From Candidatus Parcubacteria bacterium (GTDB lineage: Bacteria > Patescibacteriota > Minisyncoccia > UBA6257 > HR35), in assembly GCA_025999335.1 (NCBI GenBank), contig AP024681.1, forward strand, positions 3,414 through 67,413: a stretch of DNA of 64,000 nucleotides, written 5' to 3'. Below are positions 8,658 through 62,400 of this stretch, one piece after another; position 1 is the first letter of the stretch, and each line of letters begins with the position of its first letter. The notes beneath the pieces are model-generated. The model worked only from the letters and a program-made list of their open reading frames with translations, had not been told where the DNA came from and did not search any database. Both the position numbers and the translations under genes were made by a program.

Positions 8658-11027
8658 ATGAAATATATAAAATTTTTTCAAGAATTATCAAAAGATGATG
8701 TTGGTTTAGTTGGTGGTAAAAATGCTAATTTAGGAGAAATGTATCAGAAATTGATTGGTTTAGGAGTAAGAGTTCCGAGTGGATTTGCGGTGACTGCTGA
8801 AGGTTACGATTATTTTATTCAATTTAATAATTTAGAAAATAAGATAAAAGAAATTCTACAAAATACTAATATTTATGATGTCTCTCAACTTCAAAAAGCA
8901 GGAGAAGAAATAAGAAATTTAATTAAACAGGGCGAGTTTCCAGAAGATTTGAAGAATGAAATTCTAAGTGCTTTTGAAGAGTTGAAAAAAGAATATAGCG
9001 AAAATTTACAAGTAGCCGTAAGAAGTAGCGCTACAGCTGAAGACCTGCCTGATGCTTCATTCGCGGGGCAGCAAGAAACATATTTAAATGTGACTGAAAA
9101 AGATTTATTAGAAAAAGTTAAGTTCTGTTTTGCTTCTTTGTTTACTGATCGAGCAATTTTTTATAGACAAGAAAAAGGATTTGATCATTTTAAAGTAAAA
9201 CTTTCTGTTGGTATTCAAAAAATGGTAAGATCTGACCTAGCAAGTTCGGGAGTGATGTTTACTATTGACGCTGATTCTGGTTTAGATAAAGTAATTGTTG
9301 TTAATGGAGTTTGGGGATTGGGAGAGCTTATTGTTCAAGGAAAAGTTATTCCGGATGAGTGGATTGTTTTTAAAGTTGGTTTAGAAAGAGGCTGTCGAAG
9401 TATTATTAGCAAAAGATTAGGTGAAAAAGTTAAAAAAATTGTTTATGGAGAAAATGGAGGAGTAGCAGAAGTTGAAACCGAACAAAAAGAAAAGGAAATT
9501 TTTTCTTTAAGCGATGATGAAGTGTTAGAACTGGCAAAAATGGGCTATATTATTGAAAAGCATTATAAAAGAGCAATGGATATTGAATGGGCAAAAGATG
9601 GCGTTGATGGTAAGCTTTATATTGTTCAAGCAAGACCAGAAACTGTCCATTCGGCTAAAAAGAAAAATGTTTGGGTTGAGTATAAATTAAAAGCGAGAGG
9701 AGAGATTTTAACAAAAGGTATAGCAATTGGTTCAAAAATTAGTTCAGGAAAAGTTAGAGTGATTAAAGATGTTTCAAAAATAAATGAATTTCAAGAAGGA
9801 GAAATTTTAGTTACAGAAATGACCGATCCAGACTGGGTGCCAATTATGAAAATTGCTAAAGGAATAATTACTGATAAAGGAGGAAGAACTTGCCATGCGG
9901 CTATAGTATCACGAGAACTTGGAATTCCTGCAATTGTTGGCACAGGAAATGCAACAGAAATTTTAAAAACCGGAGATGAAGTGACAATTGATTGCAGTGC
10001 TGGAATTACTGGTTATATTTATAAAGGAATTTTAGATTATGAAGTTATTGAACATAATTTAGAAGAGATTCCTGAAACTAAAATAAAAATTTATGTTAAT
10101 ATTGGACTTCCTGATGAAGCTTGGGAAAGATGGTATTTACCAGTTAAAGGTGTAGGACTTGCTCGTGAAGAATTTATTATTGCTGAAGAAATAAAAATTC
10201 ATCCTAATGCATTGATTGATTATCCAAATTTACCAGAGGACATTAAACAAAAAATAGATGAACTCGTAAAAGATTATGAAGATAAAAAACAATATTTTGT
10301 TGATAAATTAGCTGAAGGGATTGCTAAAATTTGTACTGCTTATTATCCTTATGAAGTAATAGTTAGATTTTCTGATTTTAAGACAAATGAATATGCAAAT
10401 TTAATCGGCGGTGAACTTTATGAGCCTAAAGAAGATAATCCGATGATTGGTTGGCGAGGAGCAAGCAGATATTATCATTCAAAATTTCAAGAAGCTTTTA
10501 AATTAGAAGTTTTAGCAATGAAAAAAGTAAGAGAAGAGATGGGGTTAGATAATTTAGTAATGATGGTGCCGTTTTGTCGAACTCCTGAAGAAGGAAGAAA
10601 AGTTATGGAAATTATTGAAAGTATAATGGGTAAAAGAGAGGAAAAAGGATATAAAGTTTATGTTATGGCAGAAATCCCTTCAAATATTTTGCAAGCCGAA
10701 GAATTTTTAGAGATTTTTGATGGAATGTCAATTGGTTCAAATGATTTAACACAACTCACTTTAGGAATTGATCGTGATAATGAAATTTTACAAGGATTAG
10801 CTGATGAAAGAAATGAATCAGTGAAAAAATTAATTTCTCAAGTAATTAAAATTTGTAAAGAAAAAAATAAATACATTGGTATTTGTGGTCAAGCTCCAAG
10901 TGATTTTCCAGAAATAGTTGAACTTTTAGTTAAAAAAGGAATTGAAAGTATAAGTGTTAATAGTGATGTGGTGATTAAAACAATTGAATTGGTTAAAAAG
11001 TTTGAGGATGAAAATAGAAAATATTAA
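8658..11027 (+). CDS. ppsA: Phosphoenolpyruvate synthase (pyruvate, water dikinase)
   Basis: N-terminal DVGLVGGKNANLGEM, SSATAEDLPDASFAGQQETYLNV, phospho-His domain GGRTCHAAIVSRELGIPAIVG, C-terminal PEP-utilising TIM-barrel. Confidence 0.85.
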   Translation: MKYIKFFQELSKDDVGLVGGKNANLGEMYQKLIGLGVRVPSGFAVTAEGYDYFIQFNNLENKIKEILQNTNIYDVSQLQKAGEEIRNLIKQGEFPEDLKNEILSAFEELKKEYSENLQVAVRSSATAEDLPDASFAGQQETYLNVTEKDLLEKVKFCFASLFTDRAIFYRQEKGFDHFKVKLSVGIQKMVRSDLASSGVMFTIDADSGLDKVIVVNGVWGLGELIVQGKVIPDEWIVFKVGLERGCRSIISKRLGEKVKKIVYGENGGVAEVETEQKEKEIFSLSDDEVLELAKMGYIIEKHYKRAMDIEWAKDGVDGKLYIVQARPETVHSAKKKNVWVEYKLKARGEILTKGIAIGSKISSGKVRVIKDVSKINEFQEGEILVTEMTDPDWVPIMKIAKGIITDKGGRTCHAAIVSRELGIPAIVGTGNATEILKTGDEVTIDCSAGITGYIYKGILDYEVIEHNLEEIPETKIKIYVNIGLPDEAWERWYLPVKGVGLAREEFIIAEEIKIHPNALIDYPNLPEDIKQKIDELVKDYEDKKQYFVDKLAEGIAKICTAYYPYEVIVRFSDFKTNEYANLIGGELYEPKEDNPMIGWRGASRYYHSKFQEAFKLEVLAMKKVREEMGLDNLVMMVPFCRTPEEGRKVMEIIESIMGKREEKGYKVYVMAEIPSNILQAEEFLEIFDGMSIGSNDLTQLTLGIDRDNEILQGLADERNESVKKLISQVIKICKEKNKYIGICGQAPSDFPEIVELLVKKGIESISVNSDVVIKTIELVKKFEDENRKY

Positions 11028-12195
11028 AGCGAATAAAATTCTTGATTCAAGAGGGGAGTGGACAGTTGAGGTTGAAATTGAAAGTGAAAACAAAGGAAAA
11101 GCTTCAATTCCTTCAGGAAAAAGTTTGGGATCTCATGAGGCAGTTTGTTTAGATTGTGATTTAATTGAAAAGAATTTACCAGAATTTTTAAAAGAAGTTA
11201 AGAATTTTGATTTTAAGTCTTCTCAAGAATTTGATAATTTTTTAATTGAAAGAGCAGGAAAGAATAAAGAAAAATTAGGAGGGAATTTTACTTTAGGATG
11301 TTCAATTGCATTTGCAAAAGTATTAGCTAAAAAAGAAGGATTAGAACTTTATGAATATTTGGAGAAAGAATATACGCAGACAACCGCAAACTATACGCAG
11401 GCAGCCGCAGAGAGTTATAATAATAGTCCGCGGGAGTTTGCGTTAAGTCTGCAGGAATCCGCGCCTACTCCAAAATTAATTATCAATATTATTGGTGGTG
11501 GGGTTCATTCTTTTAATAATTTAGATTTTCAGGAGTGTTGGCTAGTAAGCAAACAAAGTTTTTCCGAAAAATTGATTGCTGAAATTTTAAGCGTAATTAA
11601 TATTTTAGAAAATAAACTCTCAAAACCATTAGGAAGAAATGATGAGGGAGCGTTTTGTACAAATTTTAATGACAATTATGAACCTTTTATTTATTTAAAT
11701 CAATTTAAAGAAAATTTTGAGCTTGGCGCGGATATTGCTGCTAATCAAATTAAAAAAGACATAAATTGGCAAGAAATTTATCATCAATTAAAAAAATTAA
11801 ATGTTACTTATTTAGAAGATCCTTACAAAGAAGATGAATTTGAATATTTTGCGAACTTAAGAAAAGAAGGATTTAAAGTTATCGGGGACGATTTAACAAC
11901 AACTAATACAGAAAGATTAAAAACTGCTTTAGAAAAAAATTCTCTTGATGGAGTAATTGTTAAACCAAATCAAATTGGAACAATTAAAGAAACTTTTGAT
12001 TTTATAAAACTAGCAAAAGAAAATAATTTATTTACAATTTTTTCTCATCGCAGCGGAGAAACTAATGATAATTGGATTATTGATTTAGGAATTTCTTTCA
12101 ATGCTGATTATTTTAAAATTGGCGTGCCATTACAAGGCGAAAGAATTGCTAAATGGAACAGATTAAAAGAAATTTTTGATAAAAATGATAAGTAA
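11008..12195 (+). CDS. eno: Enolase (divergent), with a ~30-codon in-frame insert
   Basis: MKIENIKANKILDSRGEWTVEVEIE N-terminus, VKPNQIGTIKETFDFIKLA...SHRSGETNDNWIIDLGI C-terminal signature. Start chosen at the internal ATG 11008 (overlaps the ppsA stop by 20 nt) rather than the longer ORF start 10984. Confidence 0.8.
   Translation: MKIENIKANKILDSRGEWTVEVEIESENKGKASIPSGKSLGSHEAVCLDCDLIEKNLPEFLKEVKNFDFKSSQEFDNFLIERAGKNKEKLGGNFTLGCSIAFAKVLAKKEGLELYEYLEKEYTQTTANYTQAAAESYNNSPREFALSLQESAPTPKLIINIIGGGVHSFNNLDFQECWLVSKQSFSEKLIAEILSVINILENKLSKPLGRNDEGAFCTNFNDNYEPFIYLNQFKENFELGADIAANQIKKDINWQEIYHQLKKLNVTYLEDPYKEDEFEYFANLRKEGFKVIGDDLTTTNTERLKTALEKNSLDGVIVKPNQIGTIKETFDFIKLAKENNLFTIFSHRSGETNDNWIIDLGISFNADYFKIGVPLQGERIAKWNRLKEIFDKNDK
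11374..11463. repeat. ~90-nt GC-enriched element inserted in frame in eno; divergent member of the GCGAAC-type family
   Basis: Encodes TQTTANYTQAAAESYNNSPREFALSLQESA between the enolase LYEYL and PTPKLIINIIGGG segments. Shares the ANY..NN.REF peptide core and TATAATAG..CGCG nucleotide core with the pcm and rpe inserts. Internal ccgcgg palindrome and gcagac/gtctgc inverted repeat. Confidence 0.5.
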
Positions 12196-30110: not shown

Positions 30111-30142
30111 TTTTTTTCATATATTTTTTATAATAATAAAAA

Positions 30143-37573: not shown

Positions 37574-37608
37574 TTAAGTTCGCAAAAGAATTATTTTGCG
37601 AACTTAAA
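37574..37608. terminator. near-perfect 35-nt palindrome ttaagttcgcaaaagaat|tattttgcgaacttaa (likely terminator/operator)
   Basis: 17/18 positions self-complementary; sits 80 nt after the preceding + strand gene and ~190 nt before murC; contains the GTTCGC/GCGAAC motif. Confidence 0.4.
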
Positions 37609-39309: not shown

Positions 39310-39699
39310 ATGGACTTTGGCAAAGGAGAAAATCAATTTATTCAAAGATTAAATAACTTACAAAGAGATAACAAAGAACCGTCTCCAACTAAAGAACAGA
39401 TTAACATAGATAAAAATAATTTACGTGAAAAAATAAATCATACTCTAGAAAAAATCAAAGAAGAACTAGGGATAATGCCCGAAATATCAAGAGAAGCTAA
39501 ATTTCATCAAGATCAAAAACAAATTATTGAACAATATAAAGATGTTCTAGCTGAAGCTATCAATGCATCTTTAAACGAAGATTTATTAAAAGGTTTCCAA
39601 ATGATTAAAAATATGAAAAATCCTTTTTTATTAGATGCTTTCCATGCTATGATGGCTGATCATTTTTATAAATTATTAGATAGACAAAATGAACAGTAG
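39310..39699 (+). CDS. hypothetical soluble coiled-coil protein, overlaps the downstream ATPase gene by 11 nt
   Basis: 129-aa ORF, no identifiable domain. Confidence 0.35.
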   Translation: MDFGKGENQFIQRLNNLQRDNKEPSPTKEQINIDKNNLREKINHTLEKIKEELGIMPEISREAKFHQDQKQIIEQYKDVLAEAINASLNEDLLKGFQMIKNMKNPFLLDAFHAMMADHFYKLLDRQNEQ

Positions 39700-48042: not shown

Positions 48043-49770
48043 TTAAGGATAAAGAATGACATTAATAATTTTATAATTCGAATCTACATCAATGTTTTGA
48101 TTATATATTTGATAACCGCTTTTTTCTACCTGTAAATTATAAGTACCATTTGCTAAATTTTGGAATAAAGCATAACCATCTAAAAGGCATAAAGAATCAA
48201 AATAAATTTTTATTTCGTTAACCAAAGGTGCAACATTAGGATCAGTAGTTTGTAAAAAAATTTTATATCTAAAGTATCTTTGAGAATTAAAGGTATTAGG
48301 CATAACAAACATACTATCGTAAAAATAACTATTTTCAGAACCATCAGGACCAATAAAATTCCAAGTAGCATTATCATTATTAGCAGCTATTTGATATTTA
48401 ATTACTGTTCCTGGTGGCATTGTTCCATCCCACATAAAAATATGATAATTAACAGATGTTGTGCCAAAATCAATTGTATTAGAAATTAACCATTCTGTTG
48501 CTGTTGAATAACCGTTACCTAAATTCTTTAAAGTAATTTTACCGCTAGCATTAATATCAATACCACTGCTAATCGCACTAAAATTATTTAACCAATTGTT
48601 ATTGAAAATATAATCGCCACCCGTAAAATTAATCATTGTTATGCTATTCTGCGTTAAAGTAACGGTTGCCTTATTAAGAGGATTTTGATTTTGATCAACA
48701 ACTTTAATTATCAAATTATTAGGTAAATTATCAGCAAGACCACTTTTAAAAACATAATTCCCTCCAGGATTAATTGCTATTTTATTCAACCAATCAAAAT
48801 TAGCGCCTCTTATAATATAATTAGAAGTTCCTAAATCGAATTTGTAACTATCCCATTCTAAATTTAAATTTTTATAACCAAAATTATCAGTAGTAGTTAC
48901 AATATCTGTCTTAATAACATCGGGATTTCTAGCAATTAATTTATCGCCTCTAAGACGGAATGGTAAATTAGCACTGCTAGTGCCACATAATTTATCAGAA
49001 AAATAAAAATTAGTGTTACTTAATCTATCAATTTGCAAAGTCAATTCTGTTAATTGATTAGAAGCAACGGTCTGATGTGGCAAAATAGGATTAGTAATAT
49101 CATTAGGAGAATAAGTTTGATCAACAGAATATCCATCTTTAGTAGTTGTCACGGCATAGGCATTTAAACCTGGAGGTACGTCAACTAAAGGAAGCACACC
49201 ATCAACGCTTGATTTATCATTAACCACAAAAGGCGAAGAAGAAATAAAAGTAACCTTAATATCAGCATTAGCAACAGGCATACCGTAAGCATCTATAACT
49301 TTAACAAATAAAGATCCGTTATTAGTTGATACTTCTAAAGCTTTGGGAGCAATAATTGTCGTTAAACTTTGTTTATTAAATTTGTAAAAACAATTTAGAC
49401 ATTCGCCTTCTATTTCTATTAATTTATAATCAGCCGGCGCAGAATCGCGCGGCGTCGAAGTAACAGTGCCATCACGCGGATCATCAATATTGCGCACGAA
49501 AAATTTAAGCCTAAAATTTACATTATTAACAGAAACTATTTTTTCTGCCGGTAAATTGCCAGGCGGAAAACCTCCTTGAATACCAATATTTTCATAATTC
49601 ATAACCTTTATTCTTTCTATTTCGTTTTGCATAATTCTATACAATTGCGATATTAACTTACTATTCAAAAAAGATTTATTTAAATTAATAAGCGTACCAA
49701 AAATTAAACCGCTTACAATTCCTAAAAGAATCACTGCTAATAAAATTTCAATAAGAGCGAAACCTTTCAT
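48043..49770 (-). CDS. Large (576 aa) prepilin-type N-terminal domain protein (minor pilin/tip-adhesin candidate)
   Basis: Start reassigned to the internal MKGFALIEILLAVILLG (ATG at 49768-49770, ATGA overlap with the pilC stop) instead of the ORF-track start 49836; rest predicted beta-rich. Confidence 0.55.
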   Translation of the reverse strand: MKGFALIEILLAVILLGIVSGLIFGTLINLNKSFLNSKLISQLYRIMQNEIERIKVMNYENIGIQGGFPPGNLPAEKIVSVNNVNFRLKFFVRNIDDPRDGTVTSTPRDSAPADYKLIEIEGECLNCFYKFNKQSLTTIIAPKALEVSTNNGSLFVKVIDAYGMPVANADIKVTFISSSPFVVNDKSSVDGVLPLVDVPPGLNAYAVTTTKDGYSVDQTYSPNDITNPILPHQTVASNQLTELTLQIDRLSNTNFYFSDKLCGTSSANLPFRLRGDKLIARNPDVIKTDIVTTTDNFGYKNLNLEWDSYKFDLGTSNYIIRGANFDWLNKIAINPGGNYVFKSGLADNLPNNLIIKVVDQNQNPLNKATVTLTQNSITMINFTGGDYIFNNNWLNNFSAISSGIDINASGKITLKNLGNGYSTATEWLISNTIDFGTTSVNYHIFMWDGTMPPGTVIKYQIAANNDNATWNFIGPDGSENSYFYDSMFVMPNTFNSQRYFRYKIFLQTTDPNVAPLVNEIKIYFDSLCLLDGYALFQNLANGTYNLQVEKSGYQIYNQNIDVDSNYKIINVILYP

Positions 49771-49771
49771 C

Positions 49772-50857
49772 TTACTGCGAAATTTTATCTGATATTTCAT
49801 AAATAGGTGTAATAATAGCAATAGCCATAAAACCAACTATAGCAGCAATTGTGAATAAAATAATAGGTTCTAACATATGCAACAATCTATCTATTTCAAT
49901 CTCTATTTCTTGTTCATAATTTTGTGTTAAATAATTTAAAGTATTTGATAAATTGCCTGTTTTTTCCCCAATATTTATCATCTTAATAAAATTATAAGGA
50001 AATAAGGATGTGTTTGTATTTAAAAATTCTTCCAAAGGATGTCCTTGAGCTATAAATTCGCTTGCTCGGAGAATACTTTTTTTGAAAACTTCATTGCTTA
50101 AAGTCTCGCTTGTTAATTGTAAAGCTTCAACAATAGGCATACCACTATTTAAAAGAAGTCCAAAAGTTCTACATAAAGAAGCTAAGTTAAATTTTTTTAC
50201 TATTTTTCCTAAAATTGGCAAATGCAAGATAAAAATATGGAAACCATAACGAATTTTATAAAATTTTTTTACTAAAAATATCATCAAAATAACCATTGCT
50301 ATCATAGCAATTAGCAAATATAAACCGTAATTCAAAATAAAAGTACTTACTTGAAAAAAAATTCTTGTCATTAAAGGCAATTCAATATTTAAACTTTCAA
50401 ACATTGGCAATAAACGAGGAAAAAGAAAATAAATAATAATAATGATAATAACAAACATTATGCCTATGATAAAAGCAGGATAAATCATAGCATTAATGAT
50501 CTTGCTTTTTAACCTATCTGCTTTTTCTAATTCTATAGCCAATTTATCGCAATTTTCTACTAACTTTCCGCTTACTTCACCAATTCTTATTAATGATATA
50601 AAAAAATTGCCTAATTGTTTTGAAAATTTAGCAAGAGAATTATATAAAAACTGTCCCTTGTCAACATCACTGATAATATTATTAATAAGAAATTTTAAAG
50701 ATTTAGATTCTGAACTTTCTTTTAAAATAACTAACGACTCTGATAAACTAATACCACTTTTTAATAACAAAGCTAAATTACGAGAGAAAAATATTCTATC
50801 CTTATTTTTAATTCTAAAAAAAAATGGTTTTTTAATAGAGTTTAAATCTTTATTCAT
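49772..50857 (-). CDS. pilC: Type IV pilus assembly platform protein PilC (GspF family)
   Basis: Two T2SF-type domains, three TM segments, 361 aa, directly downstream of pilB. Confidence 0.8.
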   Translation of the reverse strand: MNKDLNSIKKPFFFRIKNKDRIFFSRNLALLLKSGISLSESLVILKESSESKSLKFLINNIISDVDKGQFLYNSLAKFSKQLGNFFISLIRIGEVSGKLVENCDKLAIELEKADRLKSKIINAMIYPAFIIGIMFVIIIIIIYFLFPRLLPMFESLNIELPLMTRIFFQVSTFILNYGLYLLIAMIAMVILMIFLVKKFYKIRYGFHIFILHLPILGKIVKKFNLASLCRTFGLLLNSGMPIVEALQLTSETLSNEVFKKSILRASEFIAQGHPLEEFLNTNTSLFPYNFIKMINIGEKTGNLSNTLNYLTQNYEQEIEIEIDRLLHMLEPIILFTIAAIVGFMAIAIITPIYEISDKISQ

Positions 50858-52121
50858 GACTAACCCTTAATACTTCTTCTATGGTTGTAATACCATCAAT
50901 AACTTTAAAAATACCATCTTCAATCATTGTGCTCATACCTGCTTTGATAGCTTCTTGTTTTAAAATATCAGAACTTACTTTTTGAAGAATTAAATTTTTG
51001 ATTGTTTCATTGATAACTAATGTTTCATAAATTCCTGTTCTACCAATATAGCCAGTTTTATTACATACTTCGCAACCTTTTCCATAAAAAACACTGGAAA
51101 CTTTTAAAAATTTCGCTTTACTTCGAGTTGGCAATAAATCAATTAAGGACTGAATTTCAACATCTTTTAAGGAACGTTCTTGCTTGCATTTATCGCATAT
51201 TTTTCTTACCAATCTTTGTCCTATAATAATATTCACAGTTGAAGTAATTAAGTATGGTTCTATACCTAATTCTATTAATCTAATAACAGCGCTTGGTGCA
51301 TCGTTAGTGTGTAGTGTCGAAAGTAATAAATGCCCAGTAAGAGCTGCATTAACGCTAATTTCTGCAGTTTCTTGATCACGAATTTCGCCTACCATAATAA
51401 TATCTGGATCTTGACGTAAAATAGTGCGCAAACCTTTGCTAAAAGTTAGATTTGTTTGTAAATTAACTTGAGTTTGGGTTATACCTTCAATAGCGTATTC
51501 AATAGGATCTTCAATGGTTATAATATGCACTCCTTCGGTATTTAAAACATTTAAAATTGTATAAAGCATTGTTGTTTTGCCTGAACCAGTTGGACCAGTA
51601 GCTAAAATCATACCATAAGGCTTTTTAATAGCTCTTTTAATTTTAGTTAAATCTTTAGATGATAAACCTAATTTATCTAAAGAGAATAAAGCACCGGGAC
51701 TAACTAATAATCTTAAAATAGCATTTTCTCCATAATAGGTAGGCATAATTGATATTCTAACGTCAAAAAACTTTTTATCTTCATAATAAAATCTAAATCT
51801 TCCATCTTGAGCAGCAAAATGTTCGTCTATCCGCAAATTAGAGATAATTTTTAAACGAGATATAACTTCATCTTGTAAAGGTTTTGCTATTTCAAAAATA
51901 TTATGGGTTATACCATCAATTCGAAATCTTACCAACAAACAACTTTCTTTAGGTTGAAAATGAATATCCGAAGCTCTTAATTGGTAAGCATAAATAATAA
52001 TATTATTAACAATATCAACAATCGATGCTTTTTCTAAAGGTTTTTTAATTTCTTCTTCTATAATATTTTTTAAATTATTTTTAGCTTCACTCATTGAATA
52101 TTTCTGTAGACAAACGATCAA
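50850..52121 (-). CDS. pilB: Type IV pilus assembly ATPase PilB (GspE family)
   Basis: Walker A GPTGSGKTT, Asp box, His box, C-terminal CDKC...CEVC tetracysteine. Confidence 0.85.
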   Translation of the reverse strand: MIVCLQKYSMSEAKNNLKNIIEEEIKKPLEKASIVDIVNNIIIYAYQLRASDIHFQPKESCLLVRFRIDGITHNIFEIAKPLQDEVISRLKIISNLRIDEHFAAQDGRFRFYYEDKKFFDVRISIMPTYYGENAILRLLVSPGALFSLDKLGLSSKDLTKIKRAIKKPYGMILATGPTGSGKTTMLYTILNVLNTEGVHIITIEDPIEYAIEGITQTQVNLQTNLTFSKGLRTILRQDPDIIMVGEIRDQETAEISVNAALTGHLLLSTLHTNDAPSAVIRLIELGIEPYLITSTVNIIIGQRLVRKICDKCKQERSLKDVEIQSLIDLLPTRSKAKFLKVSSVFYGKGCEVCNKTGYIGRTGIYETLVINETIKNLILQKVSSDILKQEAIKAGMSTMIEDGIFKVIDGITTIEEVLRVSHE

Positions 52122-55133: not shown

Positions 55134-55853
55134 TTAATCGCCTACCAAAGGCACAAAACTAAACCCAAAATAAAATTCTTTATTTATTTTATCACCTGAT
55201 TTTTTAATTTTATATATGCCATTATCAGCAGGAATAACTAAAACACCATTATCGTTAAGTTGATCAAGCAATGATTGGGGAATCTTTTTAGCTGCAGCGC
55301 TAATTAAAATTCTATCAAAAGGCGCTTTTTCTGGTAATCCTTTAGAACCATCGCCTAAAAAAATCTCAACTATGCCCTTCTTTAAAAAATTATATTTTTC
55401 GATATTCCTTTTGCCGAACTCAAAAACTTCAGGAGCTATTTCAATTGCATAGACTTTTCCAGACGCGAACTCTTGCGAACCATCTCGCGAACTTGTGCGA
55501 ACTTTATCATCTTCTATTCGTGTAGGTTCGCGATTGCTATTATAGTTCGTATTTGTTCGTGTTATCTCCGCCAACAAACAAGTAGTCCAACCCGAACCAA
55601 AACCAACATCTAAAATTTTTTGTTCTTGTTTCGGCTCTAAAAGTTCCAACATAAAAGCAACCGTGTAAGGCTGGGAAATGGTTTGTTCCCTTCCAATTGG
55701 CAAAGGATAATCATTATAAGCCTCATTTAAAAATTCTTGAGGCACAAAATCTTTACGGTCAATTCTTAAGAAAGCTTTAATAATTTCCGGAGTTTTTAAT
55801 ACTTTTCTTTCTTTTAAAGATTCAACTAATTCTTTATTACTTTGATAAAACAT
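55134..55853 (-). CDS. pcm: Protein-L-isoaspartate O-methyltransferase, with 33-34-codon in-frame insert
   Basis: ISQPYTVAFMLELL, SAM-binding ILDVGFGSGWTTCLLAEI ... GKVYAIEI, C-terminal FDRILISAAA...IPAD. Confidence 0.8.
   Translation of the reverse strand: MFYQSNKELVESLKERKVLKTPEIIKAFLRIDRKDFVPQEFLNEAYNDYPLPIGREQTISQPYTVAFMLELLEPKQEQKILDVGFGSGWTTCLLAEITRTNTNYNSNREPTRIEDDKVRTSSRDGSQEFASGKVYAIEIAPEVFEFGKRNIEKYNFLKKGIVEIFLGDGSKGLPEKAPFDRILISAAAKKIPQSLLDQLNDNGVLVIPADNGIYKIKKSGDKINKEFYFGFSFVPLVGD
55463..55561. repeat. ~99-nt GCGAAC-rich palindromic element inserted in frame in pcm
   Basis: + strand cgcgaactcttgcgaaccatctcgcgaacttgtgcgaac...ggttcgcg...gttcgtatttgttcgtgt; gene-sense termini ACACGAAC...GTTCGCGT (imperfect inverted repeat); encodes TRTNTNYNSNREPTRIEDDKVRTSSRDGSQEFAS absent from Pcm orthologs. 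Confidence 0.65.
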
Positions 55854-56107
55854 TAATTAATATTAATTAATTATAAACATTAATTAATTATAAACAATTA
55901 AATCTTATGTCATCAAAATCCCTAAACTCTAACCTTTAATATTATATTATTTGATTATTTGTTTTAATTTTAAATTTGCCCAAATTTTCACGATCGTAAA
56001 TTTTTGGATACAATATTTTTGAGGGAATAATATTTTTTAATATTTTTTTAGATACAATAATTTTAAATAATTTTTAATGATCGTAATACTTAAATTTGAA
56101 CTCTTAA

Positions 56108-56884
56108 TTATTTATAATTTTTTATAATTTCTATAAAACCTAAATAAGTTTTGAAGGGATCTTCTGTATTGTAAATAGCGCTTGCCATAATAATAAAATC
56201 AGGTTCATAAGTTAAAATTTGTCTTAAATTTTGCTGATTTATACCACCATCAATCATCAATTTTTGATTTTTTTTAAGTTTTTTTTTAATAAAAGCAAGA
56301 CGATTATAAGTATCTTCTAAAAAACTCTGGCCGGCTCTTCCTGGATTAACTCCTAAAATTAATACGCCATTAACAAAATCTAAATATTTTTTAATAAAGT
56401 CAAAAGTAATTTTAGGTGACCAACCTATAAATATCTCTTTTTTTGTTTTTTTAGCTAATTTTAAAAGACCATCGGGATTAGAACTTGCCTCTAAATGCAA
56501 AATTAATCTTTTAACATTTTCTTTCGCCCACTTTAGAATTTCTTGAGGTTTTAAAGGAATCATTAGATGAATGTCAAATACTATGCGCGAACTACTACGA
56601 ACACTATTATTAATCGCGAACTTATGCGAACTCCCATCCGAACCATTGCCAACATCATTATCATCTGTTGGCATCAGTTCGCGGTTATTACCATAATTCG
56701 CATCAATTCGTGTCAATTCTAATCTATCCAAATCATTATAATTCCTCCAGGTTTCATAACCAGTAAAACTTTTTTCGGCTACATCTAAATGAAAATTTTG
56801 GGTTGAATCTTTCAAAATATTAACTTTCTCCTTAATTTCTTCAAAACTCTGAGCATTAATTGCCGGAATAATTTTTGTTTTCAT
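56108..56884 (-). CDS. rpe: Ribulose-phosphate 3-epimerase-like (divergent), with ~43-codon in-frame insert
   Basis: DIHLMIPLKP, ILGVNPGRAGQSF, MIDGGIN motifs of the ribulose-phosphate-binding barrel; adjacent to rpiB. Confidence 0.6.
   Translation of the reverse strand: MKTKIIPAINAQSFEEIKEKVNILKDSTQNFHLDVAEKSFTGYETWRNYNDLDRLELTRIDANYGNNRELMPTDDNDVGNGSDGSSHKFAINNSVRSSSRIVFDIHLMIPLKPQEILKWAKENVKRLILHLEASSNPDGLLKLAKKTKKEIFIGWSPKITFDFIKKYLDFVNGVLILGVNPGRAGQSFLEDTYNRLAFIKKKLKKNQKLMIDGGINQQNLRQILTYEPDFIIMASAIYNTEDPFKTYLGFIEIIKNYK
56586..56713. repeat. ~128-nt GCGAAC-rich palindromic element inserted in frame in rpe; homologous to the pcm insert
   Basis: Gene-sense ACACGAATTGATGCGAATTATGGTAATAACCGCGAAC...GTTCGCGC aligns at ~70% identity with the pcm element; encodes TRIDANYGNNRELMPTDDNDVGNGSDGSSHKFAINNSVRSSSR (compare TRTNTNYNSNREPT...SRDGSQEFA). 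Confidence 0.65.
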
Positions 56885-57697: not shown

Positions 57698-59474
57698 TAA
57701 ATTTATTTTTAAGCTTTAGTTTTATTTTAACATAAAAATTTTTAAATATAATTACAATCAAAATAATTATAATGACTAACTTCCAATCAAGAGCATATAA
57801 AAACCAATAATATGACTTTAATTCAATATTTATGTGAATACCTTCGCCTTCCCGTGCTTCAATAATATTACTTTTATAAGGATAATACCCATCAGCTTCA
57901 ACTGTTAAATAATATTTACCTTCAGGAACTAAAAATGAATAATTACCTGATTGATCAGTAAATTGAGGATTGGTTTGCAAAAATTTTTTAGCATCCCATA
58001 TTTCAAAACTTTGTTTCTGATAATTAAAAGAATATAAAGTAACTTTAGCGTTAGCAATACGCGCTTCCCTGCCGAAAATTCTTTCAAAAACATAACCTTC
58101 AGGGTCAATAACTGTAATCAAGCGTAATTCTTTAACTCCCAAATCTATTGTTTTGTATTCAACAACTGTTATAATCTCAAATTTCCCGTAAATTTTTGAA
58201 GGCAACTGGACTTTTGCTGTGTAAATACCATCATTATCGTCATCAAAATATTGAAATTCATAAACTTTAAAACCATACTCCACATTTTTAGCAAAAATAA
58301 CATTAATAAAACGTTGCCACCAAGACGTCGCTGAACCTCGATACAATAAATAACCTTTCAAACTTTTTACTTCAGATGACGGTTTGTAAACTAATAAAAG
58401 CTCTTGCTTATTTAAAACATTAATTGCCGGTAAAATTTCATTATTTTCATCTACTATTAAAAACGGCTTTATATCAAACATATCTTTATGAGTTTTAACA
58501 AAAACCAGATCTGAAGGAATTTTATCTTTATAGTCTAGAGAAAGTTTAGCAAGAGGTAAATTAACATTAAGAACTTCCCTTAAAGTCGGAATATGAATTT
58601 TGGCAATTTTTAATTTTTCTAAATTTAACAAATTATATAATCCTACATTCTGAAAAATCTTATTCACTTGCGGTAATTTTAAAGCTAATAATCTTATATT
58701 TTCCGGTAAATATATTTTTGTAAAATCAACCATTGGCTGATTATAAATAGTATAAGTAAGCTTTAAAGGTATAAATCTTATTACATTCCAACGTAAATCT
58801 ATGCTTGTTTTTAAGGCTTCTATTTCTTGTTCTCTAAAATAAGGAATTGATCTTTTAATTTTTTTAGTTATTTGTCTAGTAACCTCTTGAACTCGTTTAG
58901 TTTGTTGGCTAACAAAATTGTTTAAGTTAGCAAACAAATCTTCTATATTTTTCTTTAAAATTTCAAGAGTTGAAGAATTAATGTAAAGCACCGCCGAAGA
59001 GTTAAAATTATAATCACGACTATAAGAACCCATCACTCTGCTACCTTCAGATGTTGCCGTTGCTTTACGCCACAAAGTTTTAACTTTACAATCGGAGCAA
59101 TCAAAATTAATTTTACTATCATCTCTAACAACGATAGCATAACCTGAAAATTCTCCAGTAAAAGGATTAATTTTAACATTAGAAAAATCAATCCAACCAA
59201 TATTTTCACCCCACGCATAACCAGCTAAATTACCATCGCCATCATTAGTAACTCCAGCTGTTAAAGGCGATAAATTAATCCATCCATAGTTCATACTCCA
59301 AGCATAACCTGTTAATTTATTATCAAAAACTTGAACATTGCCATAAGTAGGCGCAAAATTAACCCATCCTAATGTTTCGCCCCAAGCATATTTATAATTT
59401 GTATCAATGCTAGCAGCAATTATAAAAAAAGCTGGTGTTATAAAAAATAGAATGATAAGAATCTTTTTTGCCAT
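57690..59474 (-). CDS. Secreted/surface protein with N-terminal Trp-rich tandem repeats, CarboxypepD_reg-like beta-sandwich and C-terminal TM anchor
   Basis: Signal peptide; repeats AWGETLGWVNFAP / GYAWSMNYGWINLSP / GYAWGENIGWIDFSN; ...GKYYLTVEADGYYPYKSNIIEA...; hydrophobic C-terminus. Confidence 0.45.
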   Translation of the reverse strand: MAKKILIILFFITPAFFIIAASIDTNYKYAWGETLGWVNFAPTYGNVQVFDNKLTGYAWSMNYGWINLSPLTAGVTNDGDGNLAGYAWGENIGWIDFSNVKINPFTGEFSGYAIVVRDDSKINFDCSDCKVKTLWRKATATSEGSRVMGSYSRDYNFNSSAVLYINSSTLEILKKNIEDLFANLNNFVSQQTKRVQEVTRQITKKIKRSIPYFREQEIEALKTSIDLRWNVIRFIPLKLTYTIYNQPMVDFTKIYLPENIRLLALKLPQVNKIFQNVGLYNLLNLEKLKIAKIHIPTLREVLNVNLPLAKLSLDYKDKIPSDLVFVKTHKDMFDIKPFLIVDENNEILPAINVLNKQELLLVYKPSSEVKSLKGYLLYRGSATSWWQRFINVIFAKNVEYGFKVYEFQYFDDDNDGIYTAKVQLPSKIYGKFEIITVVEYKTIDLGVKELRLITVIDPEGYVFERIFGREARIANAKVTLYSFNYQKQSFEIWDAKKFLQTNPQFTDQSGNYSFLVPEGKYYLTVEADGYYPYKSNIIEAREGEGIHINIELKSYYWFLYALDWKLVIIIILIVIIFKNFYVKIKLKLKNKFNE

Positions 59475-62400
59475 TATTCATTAGTCGTTATCGCTGGTTG
59501 ATTCTCTGATTGATTATTATTAATAGAACTATTAGATTCAGCATTAGAACTATTAGACGAATTATTACTAGAATTATCTTGAAAAGTATTATTGTTTATG
59601 TTAGAACTCTCTGAAGATTGATTATTAAGATTGCTTGAAGCACTATTATTGCTTGCCGGTAGGTTATTTGTTTCTTGATCAGAATTAACAGAAGATTCAG
59701 ATGTTACTGATGAAGACGAGGAAGACGAGGATGAAGAAGAGGATGGCGATGAAGAAGAGGTTGAAGTATTAGAAGTTGACGAAGACGAAGATGTTGTTGT
59801 TGATGATGGCAAATCTGATGTTGAAGAGCTGCTTGTTTGTTGAGTTTGATTATTATTAGAATTACTCACATTTCCATTATTATTACCAGAATTCCCAGAA
59901 TTATAATTATTATTGCTACTATTAAAATTATTAAGAGTTGACATATCTGAAGCATTAGAACAATTACCTTTAATCTTTTTAAGCTCGCCAGCAGCTATGT
60001 ATACGCAATAAGATTCACCAGTAATCTGATCTTTCATTTCTAAAAATTCTGTTTTTATTTTTGGTGAGATTATATAACTTGCCGATAATTGCTGAACTAT
60101 TATTTCTTTTACTGTCAATAAATTCTTTTCAATTGTTAAACCTAATGATCGTAAAGCATCAACAACATAGTATTGAATGTTTAAGAAGAAATCTTTCACT
60201 AATTGATAAAGATAAATAGGTAAACTTTCATACTTAATTCCTTCTGGGGTCCCATCTTTAAATCTTACCAATTCTGGAAATTGAGTTGCTACTTCTTCAG
60301 CAATAAACCCAACTTGTTTACCCGGCAAATTAAATGGTAAATCATTTTTAAATTCAAACTCTTTAGGAGTTAATGATAAAAATTTATCTTTATCAAAAAG
60401 TAAAGCTTGAATATTCGTTTTATAACGTAAAGATGAGGGCGTGCAAATAATTTTTCCTGAAGCATCTGCTGATAAAGAACAGTTAACGGCGTTTGTTTGT
60501 AAAATATCTCCTTGAACTGTTAACTTTGCCAAAGGCGTCGTTGTTCCAATAGCAACAGAATTTTCTGTCATTCTCATTATTTCTTCGCCTCGTTGATTTT
60601 TCAAAATTAAAGCTTGTGGCGAAATTGATGTTTCAGTTTCCACAAATCTAAATTCATTAGCAAAAACTAAGTCACCAACAGTTGTTGTTCCTGCGTAAAG
60701 ATTTGCCCATCTTCTTCCAGACGCTCCTAAACTATAAAGATTATCAGCTTCCGGTAAAATACTCCAAGCAGTTGTTGTTCCTGACACATGTAATTTTGTC
60801 GCCGGCGTCGTTGTTCCGATAGCAACAGAACTCGTTGTTATTCTCATTATTTCATTTGTATTGCTCTTAAAAATAATACTACCTTGTTTTGAAGCTGTGC
60901 TTGTACTACTCGTCCCTGCTGTTATAATAACACTACCAGCTTGATCACCACCACTATTGCCAGCAGTAATATTAATATTACCAACAGCACTTGAAAAACC
61001 GGTATCAGATGTCCTAATGGTAACGCTACCAATAGATACGGAAGAACCTGTAGCAGCTATTATAATATTTCCAGAAGTAAGACCTGGACCAGAACTAATA
61101 AGCACATCTCCTCCCTTTGAAAAGTTCGTACCACCCATACCACCAAGAATGTTAACTGAACCTCCTTTGGCTATGGTTGTAGTACTTCTGTCAACATTAC
61201 CTCCTCTAATATTAATATCACCACCTCTAGCACTACCTGAAGAAGTTGCTCCTAAAATAGTTAAATCTGCTCCTGCGGTATTAGAAGTATAAGAAGGAAG
61301 AATATTAATAGTTACATTTTTTTGAGGGCTAAAGAAAAGGTTACTATCTAAACTACTAAGCGTTACTGTAGCAAAAGTAGAAGTATTTAAAACAGTAAGA
61401 TTACCAGTTATTAAAGCATTACCTTGAACAGCAAAATTTACAATCGGACTCGTTGTTCCGATACCGACGTTGCCGCTTGAAACAGCTGAACCTGTAGCAG
61501 TATTAATTCCAGTTGCAAAAATAAGATTACCGATATTTAAGAAATTAGAAGTTGTTGTTGCCGGAGTGCCTGCTTGATAACCTATTAAGATATTTCGAGA
61601 ACCAACAGTTGGAGCAAAAACTGAATCATAGCCTGACTGATAACCAATAATAATATTTCCTGTGCCTGTGGTTAATTGATAGCCTGAAAAAGCTCCGAGT
61701 AAAGTATTATAACGATCAGCGGAGGTGTCTAAATTAAAACCAGATTGATAACCTACAGCAACGCCATAATTCATTCCTTTTGCTTGATAACCTACAGCAG
61801 CGCCACTACCAAATCCTTGAGCGCCATACCCCACTCCAACGCCATAACCAAAGCCCCATGAATCATATCCTATAGCAACACCAGAAACAATGGCTGAAGC
61901 ATTATATCCTACAGCAACACCGGAAATATAACCTTGAGCATTATATCCAATAGCAGTACCTGAACTATAACCTGCGGCACTATATCCTACAGCAACACCG
62001 GAATTGTAACCTCGAGCATTATATCCAATAGCAGTACCTGAACTATACCCCAAAGAACTATAGCCTATAGCTACCCCTGAAGACGCTGAATTAGCCCCAA
62101 TACCAACGCTTACCCCATAATCAGTGCTATAACTATTTGCGCCAATAGCTAGACCATAATTATATGAGCGAACTAAAAGCGAATTCAAAATATCTACAAA
62201 ATCAAAACTTCCCCAACCTGTATTAAGATAAACAATTTTAGCACCTTTAAAAGTTGTAAGTTTATTTATTATAGATGTAGCCCCAACTTGTTTAATAATT
62301 ATTTCACTGCTACTTGTAGGTGCTGAAACATTATAAATAACAAATGAATCGCCTTGACGAGCTGTTGCTGTTGCTAAATATACAGTTACCGATGAAGTAG

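What the first reader, a model, noticed from the sequence alone, without database searches (positions are those of the whole stretch)
55463..56713. Homologous GC-rich palindromic elements inserted in frame into pcm and rpe (and, more divergently, eno)
Two neighbouring housekeeping genes each carry a short segment of sharply higher GC than their AT-rich hosts, packed with GCGAAC units on one arm and GTTCGC on the other. The pcm element (55463-55561, 33-34 codons) and rpe element (56586-56713, ~43 codons) align with each other at ~70% nucleotide identity in gene orientation (ACACGAA...AACTATAAT/ATTATGGTAAT...CGCGAAC...GTTCGCG). They translate to related peptides (TRTNTNYNSNREPT...SRDGSQEFAS versus TRIDANYGNNRELMPT...GSDGSSHKFA) sitting exactly where Pcm and Rpe orthologs are contiguous. 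Both are in frame and fall in surface-loop positions. This is the hallmark of Rickettsia-palindromic-element-like selfish repeats that survive by inserting in frame into proteins. I am not aware of such elements described for a genome of this type. A third, more divergent copy is in eno. A different element with perfect TIRs is in gdh.
Basis: partly seen in the sequence, partly recalled or inferred. Interest (0 to 1): 0.8.

Follow-up and report, generated by a model that had tools for sequence, protein, structure and literature searches.

The report
Palindromic selfish inserts inside Parcubacteria genes
Three housekeeping genes of this small-genome Parcubacteria bacterium carry 96-129-base CpG-rich hairpin repeats inserted in frame (modelled as a floppy surface loop in Pcm), and in related genomes the same hairpin arms flank a small 'GxxExxY' nuclease gene also embedded in frame in essential proteins, which points to a nuclease-linked selfish element I could not find described.

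Summary
The segments are 43% GC against 26-32% in the host genes, have 5-6 times the window's CpG density, and are homologous to each other (68-77% identity). Each folds into a long imperfect hairpin built from ~10-nt CGCGAAC/GTTCGCG units. eno (11371-11466) carries a third insert of the same design with CGCAG/CTGCG units.

Close relatives show filled and empty sites for pcm, rpe and ppsA. An arm-specific DNA pattern finds 42 further unit clusters in about ten Paceibacteria/Patescibacteria assemblies. With the two window copies that makes 44 clusters, of which 27 lie in long host frames, all read in one frame. The hosts are unrelated enzymes.

This behaves like the Rickettsia palindromic elements, in a different phylum and with different sequences.

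The new point is a nuclease link. In three relatives the same arms flank an in-frame GxxExxY (PF13366/TIGR04256) PD-(D/E)XK nuclease. Fourteen of 15 GxxExxY genes examined are flanked by inverted unit arrays. Many Parcubacteria proteins (RecG, GatB, LepA and others) carry this nuclease internally.

I read the window inserts as ORF-less derivatives of nuclease-bearing hairpin elements. Mobility by the nuclease is inferred, not shown. No nuclease gene lies in this window.

The parts
55134..55853 (-). pcm, host gene (protein-L-isoaspartate O-methyltransferase, 239 aa)
   Evidence: Pfam PCMT, E 1e-50, match split in two. Orthologues are mostly 209 aa.
55461..55562 (-). pcm insert: 102-nt in-frame palindromic element of CGAAC/GTTCG type. 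Peptide TRTNTNYNSNREPTRIEDDKVRTSSRDGSQEFAS.
   Evidence: Absent from the closest orthologue L092, which has 4 codons there. Hairpin -28 kcal/mol on the mRNA strand and -40 on the + strand. pLDDT below 50 in the AF2 model. GC 0.43, CpG 10.8 per 100 nt.
56108..56884 (-). rpe, host gene (ribulose-phosphate 3-epimerase, 258 aa)
   Evidence: Pfam Ribul_P_3_epim, E 1.5e-27; the reported best stretch covers only residues 91-238 (profile positions 48-198), downstream of the insert.
56585..56713 (-). rpe insert: 129-nt in-frame palindromic element of the same family. Peptide TRIDANYGNNRELMPTDDNDVGNGSDGSSHKFAINNSVRSSSR.
   Evidence: Site is empty in syntenic L003; L005 and L006 have other inserts in the same loop. 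Hairpin -44 kcal/mol, z -4.05. Homologous to the pcm insert and to the arms of nuclease-bearing elements.
10984..12195 (+). eno, host gene (enolase, 403 aa)
   Evidence: Pfam Enolase_N ends at residue 126 and Enolase_C starts at 166.
11371..11466 (+). eno insert: 96-nt in-frame palindromic element of CGCAG/CTGCG type. Peptide YTQTTANYTQAAAESYNNSPREFALSLQESAP.
   Evidence: GC 0.51 against 0.27. Hairpin -35 kcal/mol. Third strongest fold in the window scan, after two tRNAs and the pcm element. The L023 orthologue has a 100-aa CGAAC-type element at the same site. Units resemble the L003 inserts.
37576..37605 (.). Intergenic perfect hairpin AAGTTCGCAAAAG..TTTTGCGAACTT built from one GTTCGC/GCGAAC unit pair. 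Possibly a minimal copy of the family, in the opposite arm order.
   Evidence: Assignment to the family rests only on the shared 12-nt unit.

Best explanation
The pcm and rpe segments, and the eno segment from a sister sub-family, are copies of a dispersed selfish palindromic repeat of Parcubacteria (Paceibacteria). They sit in frame in coding sequence and are most likely translated as hydrophilic, disordered surface loops.

Each element is a long imperfect hairpin. Its two arms are arrays of ~10-11-nt units with a CpG core: CGCGAAC on the 5' arm and GTTCGCG on the 3' arm, the two halves of the palindrome GTTCGCGAAC. Other sub-families use CGCAGA/TCTGCG or CGCGGAT/ATCCGCG.

My reading is that these short elements are ORF-less (MITE-like) derivatives of full-length elements in which the same arms flank a ~125-aa GxxExxY PD-(D/E)XK nuclease (Pfam PDDEXK_3, TIGR04256). 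The arms are open in only one frame, the frame of the nuclease. A full element that lands in a gene can therefore be read through (host - arm - nuclease - arm - host), and the short derivatives inherit that coding-competent frame.

Spread is probably nuclease-driven: a break is made, then a copy is made by recombination or gene conversion between elements. Growth or shrinkage by slippage of 21-nt (7-codon) modules comes on top of that. Selection then keeps only in-frame copies in tolerant loops.

Shown: repeat homology, hairpins, filled and empty sites, multi-copy spread, single reading frame, loop placement for Pcm, and physical association of the arms with the nuclease.

Inferred: that the nuclease mobilises the elements, the mechanism of movement, and that the inserts are translated.
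For: Homology and hairpins.

Insert absent from most orthologues, with variable inserts at the same loop.

Filled and empty sites in syntenic relatives (pcm window vs L092; rpe window vs L003; ppsA L053 vs window).

Multi-copy spread. The pattern GTTCGCANNAGTTCGCGN{3,20}GTTCG hit 35 AT-rich loci, almost all titled Paceibacteria/Patescibacteria; a few carry Ignavibacteria, WOR-3 or unclassified 'bacterium' titles, and one (L027, titled Gammaproteobacteria) was dropped. About 45 single hits in GC-rich genomes look like chance. Counting the two window copies there are 44 unit clusters, 27 of them in open frames of at least 200 codons, and all 27 are read in the same frame (RTNANYSEP.../...VRISSRESSQEFA). 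Hosts by Pfam are transketolase, P-type ATPase, TruB, ROK, PEP synthase, MnmA, Fpg, Mur ligase, an epimerase and PGA_cap; IleRS and enolase hosts were recognised by sequence only. Copies in unrelated genes of one MAG are 76-91% identical over 65-143 nt.

Concerted pattern. The pcm and rpe inserts of one genome share a unit type (window CGAAC, L003 CGCAGAC, L005 CGCGGAT) rather than matching their positional orthologues.

Loop placement.

Against: No GxxExxY gene lies in this 64-kb window (tblastn). The rest of the 680-kb genome could not be searched, and the genome is not in the genome collection.

The window copies are only 68-77% alike, so they are old, and nothing shows current activity.

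No target-site duplication or conserved target motif was seen at three filled/empty pairs, so the insertion chemistry is unknown.

The association of nuclease and arms fits equally well a nuclease gene that homes into pre-existing hairpin repeats.

Many clusters are one-armed tandem arrays, so slippage contributes independently of any nuclease.

Translation of the inserts is inferred only from frame and stop-codon statistics.

The structural neighbours of the nuclease are generic and say nothing about its substrate.
Confidence: 0.6

Rival explanations
1. The hairpin repeats are an independent MITE/REP-like family moved by some other enzyme (an IS transposase or a RAYT-type Y1 transposase) or by recombination alone. 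The GxxExxY nuclease is a secondary invader, a homing-endonuclease-like gene whose target is the repeat itself, so it ends up in the loop of some copies.
For: The nuclease always sits at the centre of the palindrome. In Ferruginibacter (L108) complete small hairpins flank the gene on both sides. ORF-less copies far outnumber nuclease-bearing ones. No nuclease gene lies in the window.
Against: No transposase candidate was seen in the window ORFs that were annotated or next to the elements in the loci. The arms are open in exactly the nuclease frame, even for free-standing genes (L101 reads PRIDTNRHEW, the same reading as the window rpe TRIDANY). That is expected if arms and nuclease evolved together.
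Confidence: 0.25
2. The segments are not mobile. Each grew in place by replication slippage and hairpin-templated expansion from a short seed in a tolerant loop, and their similarity reflects convergent constraints (CpG-rich units, hydrophilic codons).
For: Many clusters are one-armed tandem arrays with 21- or 48-nt periods (L085, L021, L006 pcm). The same loops are occupied repeatedly.
Against: Copies in unrelated genes share 65-143-nt stretches at 76-91% identity, including non-unit spacers. Sub-family type follows the genome and not the site. Copies also lie between genes. Clean filled/empty pairs occur between close orthologues.
Confidence: 0.07
3. The segments are intervening sequences removed at the RNA level (RNase III-type excision as in 23S rRNA IVS, or splicing), so they never reach the protein.
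For: The hairpin architecture resembles rRNA intervening sequences, whose stems flank small ORFs (Coxiella IVS, PMC4990558, seen). Patescibacteria are rich in introns (PMC13011429, listed).
Against: All 27 intragenic clusters are stop-free and in one frame with the host, which is unnecessary if they were removed. Excision without ligation would destroy the mRNA. No Rfam intron family or other RNA family matches. Lengths are multiples of three.
Confidence: 0.05
4. The segments are lineage-specific functional loops of Pcm, Rpe and Eno kept by selection on the protein.
For: Inserts recur at the same loop in many Parcubacteria Pcm orthologues.
Against: Sequences and lengths at that loop differ completely between close relatives, and most orthologues lack any insert. 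The conserved feature is DNA complementarity of the arms, not the peptide. The region is predicted disordered. The same DNA occurs in unrelated genes.
Confidence: 0.03

Closest known systems
Rickettsia palindromic elements (RPE; Ogata et al. 2000, as summarised in PMC10969869)
   Same: Palindromic repeats of about 100-150 nt in an AT-rich reduced genome. They are inserted many times in frame into unrelated housekeeping genes, encode a conserved peptide, and are thought to lie where they are compatible with the protein's three-dimensional structure. Copies also occur between genes.
   Different: A different phylum (Patescibacteria/Parcubacteria, not Alphaproteobacteria) and unrelated sequence as far as I can tell (not tested against RPE consensus sequences). 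The arms are modular arrays of ~10-nt CpG-core units that expand in 21-nt steps. Several sub-families keep arm complementarity with different units. As far as I know, no autonomous partner is known for RPEs, whereas here the same arms flank a PD-(D/E)XK nuclease.
Prokaryotic MITEs that create in-frame fusions (ERIC, BOX, Coxiella QMITE1, Anabaena MITEs; PMC10969869)
   Same: Short non-coding derivatives with inverted-repeat structure, multi-copy, occasionally read through as part of host ORFs.
   Different: No target-site duplication seen. There is no short TIR plus unrelated interior: the whole element is a hairpin. The candidate autonomous partner encodes a nuclease and not a DDE or Y1 transposase. 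Most sampled copies (27 of 44) are intragenic.
Homing endonuclease genes and inteins
   Same: Full-length relatives place a nuclease ORF in frame inside conserved essential genes (RecG, GatB, LepA, transketolase, P-type ATPase), repeatedly at the same site, as inteins do. PD-(D/E)XK homing endonucleases exist (I-Ssp6803I, from my own knowledge).
   Different: No Hint or splicing domain (Pfam shows only PDDEXK_3 plus host domains), so the insert would stay in the mature protein. Repeat-array hairpin arms have no counterpart in inteins. ORF-less miniature copies are abundant.
23S rRNA intervening sequences (e.g. Coxiella burnetii IVS, PMC4990558)
   Same: A selfish element made of a stem of inverted repeats enclosing a small ORF, inserted in an essential gene.
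   Different: An IVS sits in rRNA and is cut out of the RNA. Its ORF is the S23p four-helix-bundle protein. The elements here lie in protein-coding genes and appear to be translated.
REP/BIME elements with RAYT transposases; GC clusters and double-hairpin elements of AT-rich mitochondrial genomes (own knowledge, not checked here)
   Same: Short GC-rich palindromes dispersed in a genome. Mitochondrial GC clusters also occur in frame in an AT-rich background (yeast var1).
   Different: REPs are 20-40 nt, extragenic and linked to a Y1 transposase. The mitochondrial elements are in eukaryotic organelles and have no associated nuclease gene of this family.

Membership tests
Rickettsia palindromic elements (RPE) | Imperfect palindrome of about 100-150 nt able to form a stable hairpin | tested here: met
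   Inserts of 102, 129 and 96 nt; MFE -28 to -46 kcal/mol; z -2.8 to -6.0.
Rickettsia palindromic elements (RPE) | Repeated in-frame insertion into unrelated protein-coding genes, with orthologues that lack the insert | tested here: met
   pcm, rpe and eno in the window. Across the window and related assemblies, 27 intragenic clusters in at least 12 kinds of host. Filled and empty sites found.
Rickettsia palindromic elements (RPE) | Insert lies at the protein surface or in a loop | tested here: met
   Pcm AF2 model: insert pLDDT below 50 between H89-98 and E133-138, rest above 90. Not modelled for Rpe or Eno.
Rickettsia palindromic elements (RPE) | Sequence homology to RPE-1 to RPE-10 of Rickettsia | not tested
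   No RPE consensus was available in the tools. No Rfam family matched. The host is a Parcubacteria MAG. I file this as 'works like RPE', not as a member.
MITE (strict sense) | Target-site duplication flanking the element | tested here: not met
   No direct repeat at the junctions of three filled/empty pairs: pcm, rpe, ppsA.
MITE (strict sense) | Terminal inverted repeats shared with an autonomous element that encodes a transposase | tested here: inconclusive
   Arms are shared with longer elements, but these encode a PD-(D/E)XK nuclease, not a recognised transposase.
REP / RAYT system | 20-40-nt extragenic palindromes associated with a Y1 (IS200/IS605-like) transposase | tested here: not met
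   Elements are 96-300 nt and mostly intragenic (27 of 44). No such transposase appeared among the roughly 20 window ORFs that were annotated. The whole genome was not available.
Intein / homing endonuclease gene | In-frame insertion of a nuclease-coding segment in a conserved host gene | tested here: met
   Met for relatives only: L021, L055, L071 and 16 database proteins. The window copies have no ORF.
Intein / homing endonuclease gene | Hint-type protein-splicing domain (intein) or a self-splicing intron around the nuclease | tested here: not met
   Pfam finds only PDDEXK_3 plus host domains. No Rfam intron matched in the window.
GxxExxY / PDDEXK_3 nuclease family (TIGR04256, PF13366) | Match above the curated cut-off, with the GxxExxY and D...ExK residues | tested here: met
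23S rRNA intervening sequence | Located in rRNA and excised from the transcript | tested here: not met
   All three window copies are in protein-coding genes. The window has no rRNA. Excision is not testable with these tools.

The most novel reading that the evidence does not exclude
GxxExxY (PDDEXK_3) nucleases together with their unit-array hairpin arms form a widespread, so far undescribed class of selfish element. In Parcubacteria it colonises conserved sites of essential genes in frame, like an intein that does not splice, and it leaves behind ORF-less palindromic inserts such as those in pcm, rpe and eno. If so, a protein family of unknown function with about 10,000 representative clusters gets a role, and protein-coding palindromes of the RPE type get a candidate engine.
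Probability: 0.45. Interest if true: 0.88.

Novelty: new variant of a known kind. Interest (0 to 1): 0.78.

Why it matters
Protein-coding palindromic repeats have been treated as a peculiarity of Rickettsia, and as far as I know how they move is still unknown. Finding the same behaviour in the candidate phyla radiation shows that it recurs in reduced AT-rich genomes.

Here the repeats also come with a concrete candidate engine: a small PD-(D/E)XK nuclease of unknown function whose gene sits between the same arms. That makes the mobility question testable by asking whether the nuclease cuts the arms or the empty sites.

It suggests a function for a very large uncharacterised family (9927 representative clusters at E<=1e-3).

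It also bears on annotation. These inserts lengthen and split domain matches in Parcubacteria proteins, and NCBI and JGI name 313-672-aa host enzymes 'GxxExxY protein'. They are a source of new disordered loops and whole inserted domains in essential enzymes of organisms with minimal genomes.

Tried and rejected
A profile of the insert peptides searched against the 5.8-billion-protein collection gave nothing at E<=1e-3. The query was too short and low in information, and one capped search was lost.

The word-indexed search with the embedded nuclease returned only 37 free-standing ~125-aa proteins and missed the embedded ones. The exhaustive phmmer search was needed to see them.

RNA duplex energies between the flanks of nuclease genes were too noisy: 2 of 13 loci were not significant. 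I replaced them with local alignment of the upstream flank against the reverse-complemented downstream flank.

Counting the codon phase of single units was uninformative, because units 10-12 nt apart cycle through all three phases. An element-level frame test was used instead.

I looked for target-site duplications or a common target motif at three filled/empty pairs and found none.

I looked for a resolvase-like fold that might explain a hairpin preference. There was only a non-significant sequence hit to T7 endonuclease I (E 0.14). The fold searches gave generic PD-(D/E)XK neighbours: Cas4, Dna2, lambda exonuclease and restriction enzymes.

Rfam gave only four tRNAs.

The source genome (KatS3mg097) is not in the genome collection, so copy number in this genome could not be counted.

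Literature searches for palindromic elements in Parcubacteria/CPR/Patescibacteria, and for GxxExxY or PDDEXK_3 mobility, found nothing relevant. The library lacks most subscription journals.
Full report
**Source and setting.** The window is 27.5% GC. Its Pcm protein is identical to a protein of 'MAG: Candidatus Parcubacteria bacterium KatS3mg097', whose longest contig is 680,436 bp. The finding lies in a minus-strand run of rpiB - rpe - pcm - Na+/H+ exchanger, and the same order is kept in relatives L003, L005 and L006.

- The Pcm ORF (55134-55853, minus strand) is 239 aa, whereas most of its best homologues are about 209 aa.
- In a 27-sequence alignment the extra 34 residues (98-131, window 55461-55562) fall between the motif-I helix (...WTTCLLAEI) and the next strand (GKVYAIEI).
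- The Rpe ORF (56108-56884, minus strand) has 43 extra residues (58-100, 56585-56713) compared with the syntenic L003 gene.
- Both inserts are 43% GC in genes that are otherwise 32% and 26% GC. They hold 8.5-10.8 CpG per 100 nt against 1.78 for the window.
- GCGAAC occurs 13 times in the window against about 3.4 expected, and 7 of these are in the two inserts.
- The two inserts align with each other (75% mean column identity by MAFFT; 68-77% by blastn). A profile of the pair finds nothing else strong in the window.
- Each folds as a long imperfect hairpin (z -2.8 to -6.0). After two tRNAs, the pcm and eno elements are the most over-stable 120-nt stretches of the window once GC is allowed for.

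**The third copy, in eno.** eno (10984-12195) has a 32-residue segment (11371-11466). It is 51% GC and forms a hairpin of -35 kcal/mol, between the Enolase_N and Enolase_C matches. Its units are CGCAG/CTGCG rather than CGAAC/GTTCG, and its similarity to the other two is not significant by sequence (E 0.13). It has the same design but belongs to another sub-family. The gdh insert is different again: only its ends are inverted repeats.

**Anatomy.** I compared ten inserts from the window and four relatives. Nine are hairpins, with MFE from -27 to -74 kcal/mol. The tenth, the 54-nt L006 pcm insert, is a one-armed tandem array that barely folds (-7.9 kcal/mol).
- The arms are arrays of ~10-11-nt units with a CpG core. 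CGCGAAC/GTTCGCG (the two halves of the palindrome GTTCGCGAAC) occur in the window pcm and rpe and in part of L006. ACGCAGAC/GTCTGCGT occur in L003 and the window eno. CGCGGAT/ATCCGCG occur in L005 and L006.
- Across sub-families the unit sequence changes but the two arms stay complementary. That is covariation at the level of whole units.
- In every case the 5' arm is read as T/R-x-[DN]-A-[DN]-Y-type peptides and the 3' arm as S-x-R-x-S-A or [KE]-F-A types.
- Arms grow in 21-nt (7-codon) or 48-nt steps, as in ETSINAD x2, RTDANNT x3 and the 16-aa repeats of L021.

**Evidence that the elements move or are copied.**
1. *Filled and empty sites.* The closest Pcm orthologue (L092) has four codons where the window has 34. 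L003 rpe is empty at the window's site but carries an insert at another site, while L005 and L006 carry other inserts in the same loop. The window's own ppsA is empty where the L053 orthologue has a 68-aa element.
2. *Many copies.* An exact pattern taken from the 3' arm matched 84 stretches in the GTDB representative genomes. Thirty-five are AT-rich loci, almost all titled Paceibacteria/Patescibacteria. One MAG (CALHAT) contributed 13 contigs. The rest are single hits in GC-rich genomes, about the number expected by chance.
3. *Location.* In 34 of these loci and the window I counted 44 clusters of at least four units. Twenty-seven lie in open frames of at least 200 codons, and 17 lie in short or no frames and are presumably intergenic. 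Hosts are unrelated: transketolase, P-type ATPase, TruB, a ROK kinase, PEP synthase, MnmA, Fpg, a Mur ligase, an epimerase and PGA_cap by Pfam, plus IleRS and enolase recognised by sequence.
4. *Similarity between copies.* Copies in different genes of one MAG are 76-91% identical over 65-143 nt.
5. *Genome-specific type.* Within a genome the pcm and rpe inserts share a unit type, although the same loops in sister genomes hold other types. The eno site holds a 32-aa CGCAG element here and a 100-aa CGAAC element in L023. Either the same tolerant loops are hit again and again, or resident copies are overwritten by gene conversion. Both require sequence to pass between dispersed copies.

**Reading frame and protein context.** All 27 intragenic clusters are read in the same element frame. 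Long elements have only that frame open. Short ones have two or three open frames on the coding strand yet still use it (about 1e-3 by chance for those alone). The other open frame (FALVREKVRK...) is seen only in short spurious ORFs. The AlphaFold model of Pcm (mean pLDDT 87) gives pLDDT below 50 for residues 103-109 and 113-129, which lie between helix 89-98 and strand 133-138, and above 90 for most of the rest. This supports a disordered surface loop. Rpe and Eno were not modelled.

**The nuclease link.**
- In L021 (transketolase) and in L055 and L071 (P-type ATPase) the host frame runs through a CGAAC arm, then a ~125-aa domain, then a GTTCG arm, and back into the host.
- The domain is PDDEXK_3 (PF13366, E about 1e-30) and matches TIGR04256 'GxxExxY protein' at 115-117 bits against a cut-off of 35.
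- With the nuclease removed, these arms align with the window's pcm and rpe elements. The motif GTTCGCA..AGTTCGCG.GA.AGTTCGCA...GTTCGCG is shared by all five sequences.
- The three MAGs with several ORF-less copies each show a nuclease-bearing copy in the small regions sampled, although those regions were chosen by the arm pattern and not by the nuclease.
- I then asked whether free-standing GxxExxY genes have such arms. I examined ten metagenome homologues (GC 32-70%), a Chloracidobacterium-type chromosome and a Ferruginibacter contig. In 14 of 15 loci overall, the upstream flank matches the reverse complement of the downstream flank in arrays of ~10-nt units (CACGAAT, CACAGAT, AAGATT/GGATT, CGCAGAT), with z 5-14 against shuffles. 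In L101 the arm is open in the nuclease frame and reads PRIDTNRHEW, the same reading as TRIDANY in the window's rpe.
- An exhaustive phmmer search found 9927 representative clusters at E<=1e-3. Among the best 150, 49 are at least 300 aa. The 16 I read are RecG (six, all at one site between DEQHRFG and SMTATPIPRT), GatB, LepA, asparagine synthase, glycosyltransferases and an ATPase. Each has the nuclease inside, with arm-type peptides (...TRTDAD... and ...PRESA...) on both sides. Those with names come from Paceibacterota, Liptonbacteria, Sungbacteria and 'Patescibacteria group'.

**How it most likely works.** The short window elements are most simply read as miniature, ORF-less derivatives of hairpin-armed elements that carry a GxxExxY nuclease.

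The need to read through the arm into the nuclease when the element sits in a gene explains two things. It explains why the arms have one open frame encoding hydrophilic linkers, and why the derivatives can persist in frame in loops.

The nuclease presumably makes a break that is repaired by copying an element, as in homing or gene conversion. That would also explain the genome-specific homogenisation of unit types and the repeated use of the same sites. Slippage then lengthens or shortens the arms.

These last steps are inference. I saw no target-site duplication or target motif. No nuclease gene lies in this window, and the window copies are old (68-77% alike).

The main rival is that the nuclease is a secondary invader of an independently mobile hairpin repeat, and I cannot exclude it. 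In-place growth, RNA-level removal and functional host loops are each contradicted by the data above.

**Comparison with what is known.** The behaviour is that of Rickettsia palindromic elements: ~150-bp palindromes integrated in frame in many unrelated genes (summary in PMC10969869). I do not file these as RPE members. The host phylum differs and homology to RPE sequences was not tested.

They fail the strict MITE test (no TSD, no transposase) and the REP/RAYT test (size and location). The full-length relatives resemble inteins or homing endonuclease genes in site choice but have no splicing domain. They resemble rRNA intervening sequences (PMC4990558) in being a stem around a small ORF, but they sit in coding sequence.

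I found no paper on palindromic inserts in CPR bacteria or on GxxExxY mobility, within a library that omits most subscription journals.

**Verdict.** Novelty: a new variant of a known kind, meaning RPE-like protein-coding palindromes in a new phylum, with modular arms and a candidate nuclease partner. Interest 0.78.

Noticed in passing
window 5638-5802 (gdh, 4765-6237 +): A 165-nt in-frame insert at 56% GC in glutamate dehydrogenase, bounded by a perfect 10-nt inverted repeat (ATATTCGCGG at 5636, CCGCGAATAT at 5794). The ends resemble the CCGCGAA[C/T] arm unit but in the opposite order. The interior is not palindromic (z -0.9) and matched nothing meaningful in the loci held (only 15-20-nt blastn hits, E 0.02-0.25).
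   Followed up: partly
window 37576-37605: A perfect intergenic hairpin AAGTTCGCAAAAG-loop-TTTTGCGAACTT downstream of ORF 36331-37491. It uses the same GTTCGCAAAAG unit as the intragenic elements but with the arms in the reverse order. It may be a minimal copy or a terminator-like derivative.
   Followed up: partly
window 38046-38111 (Mur ligase gene 37800-39245 +): A 22-residue AT-rich extra segment (QMHYFPKTTKINQQNINLKSPI) sits exactly where the L066 orthologue has a 33-aa GTTCG-type element. It may be a decayed relic of an old insertion.
   Followed up: partly
window 8658-11027 (ppsA): The window's PEP synthase is empty (KLKARG-EILTKG) at the linker where the L053 orthologue carries a 68-aa element. 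This is a clean filled/empty pair with the window as the empty allele.
   Followed up: yes
L021 6464-6844 (-), L055 755-1132, L071 2332-2709; proteins P0160-P0305: Whole GxxExxY nuclease domains embedded in frame in transketolase, P-type ATPase, RecG (six cluster representatives, same site), GatB, LepA, AsnB and glycosyltransferases of Parcubacteria. NCBI and JGI name several of these 313-672-aa host proteins simply 'GxxExxY protein'.
   Followed up: yes
L108 (Ferruginibacter contig) 450-1200: Here the GxxExxY gene is flanked by complete small hairpins (ATCTGCGGG..CCCGCAGAT type), one upstream and two downstream. Arms and ORF-less hairpins therefore occur in tandem around the gene in Bacteroidota too.
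   Followed up: partly
L064 (KatS3mg096, MnmA gene): An element in MnmA holds a nested tandem peptide repeat (SGNHPGNL x3) between TQT.AD-type and S.R.SA-type arms. The loops of these elements can themselves expand.
   Followed up: no
window 28383-32426: Two or three adjacent paralogous genes (575, 566 and 199 aa) full of 111-nt tandem repeats (up to 22 copies of a 67-nt core). Weak Pfam matches to PD40/WD40-like beta-propeller repeats. Segments 28425-28724/30182-30481 and 29894-30138/32210-32454 are 92-95% identical.
   Followed up: partly
window 59474-63298 (-), repeats at 61742-62081: A 1274-aa ORF with a Peptidase_S74 (endosialidase chaperone) domain and eight 39-nt tandem repeats. It resembles a tail-fibre or surface-fibre protein and sits next to two CarboxypepD_reg-domain proteins.
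   Followed up: no
window 39689-42151 and 48043-52121: A TrwB/TraG-like coupling ATPase (820 aa), and a type IV pilus / T2SS-like cluster (T2SSE, T2SSF, and a pilin-like N_methyl protein with a CarboxypepD_reg domain).
   Followed up: no
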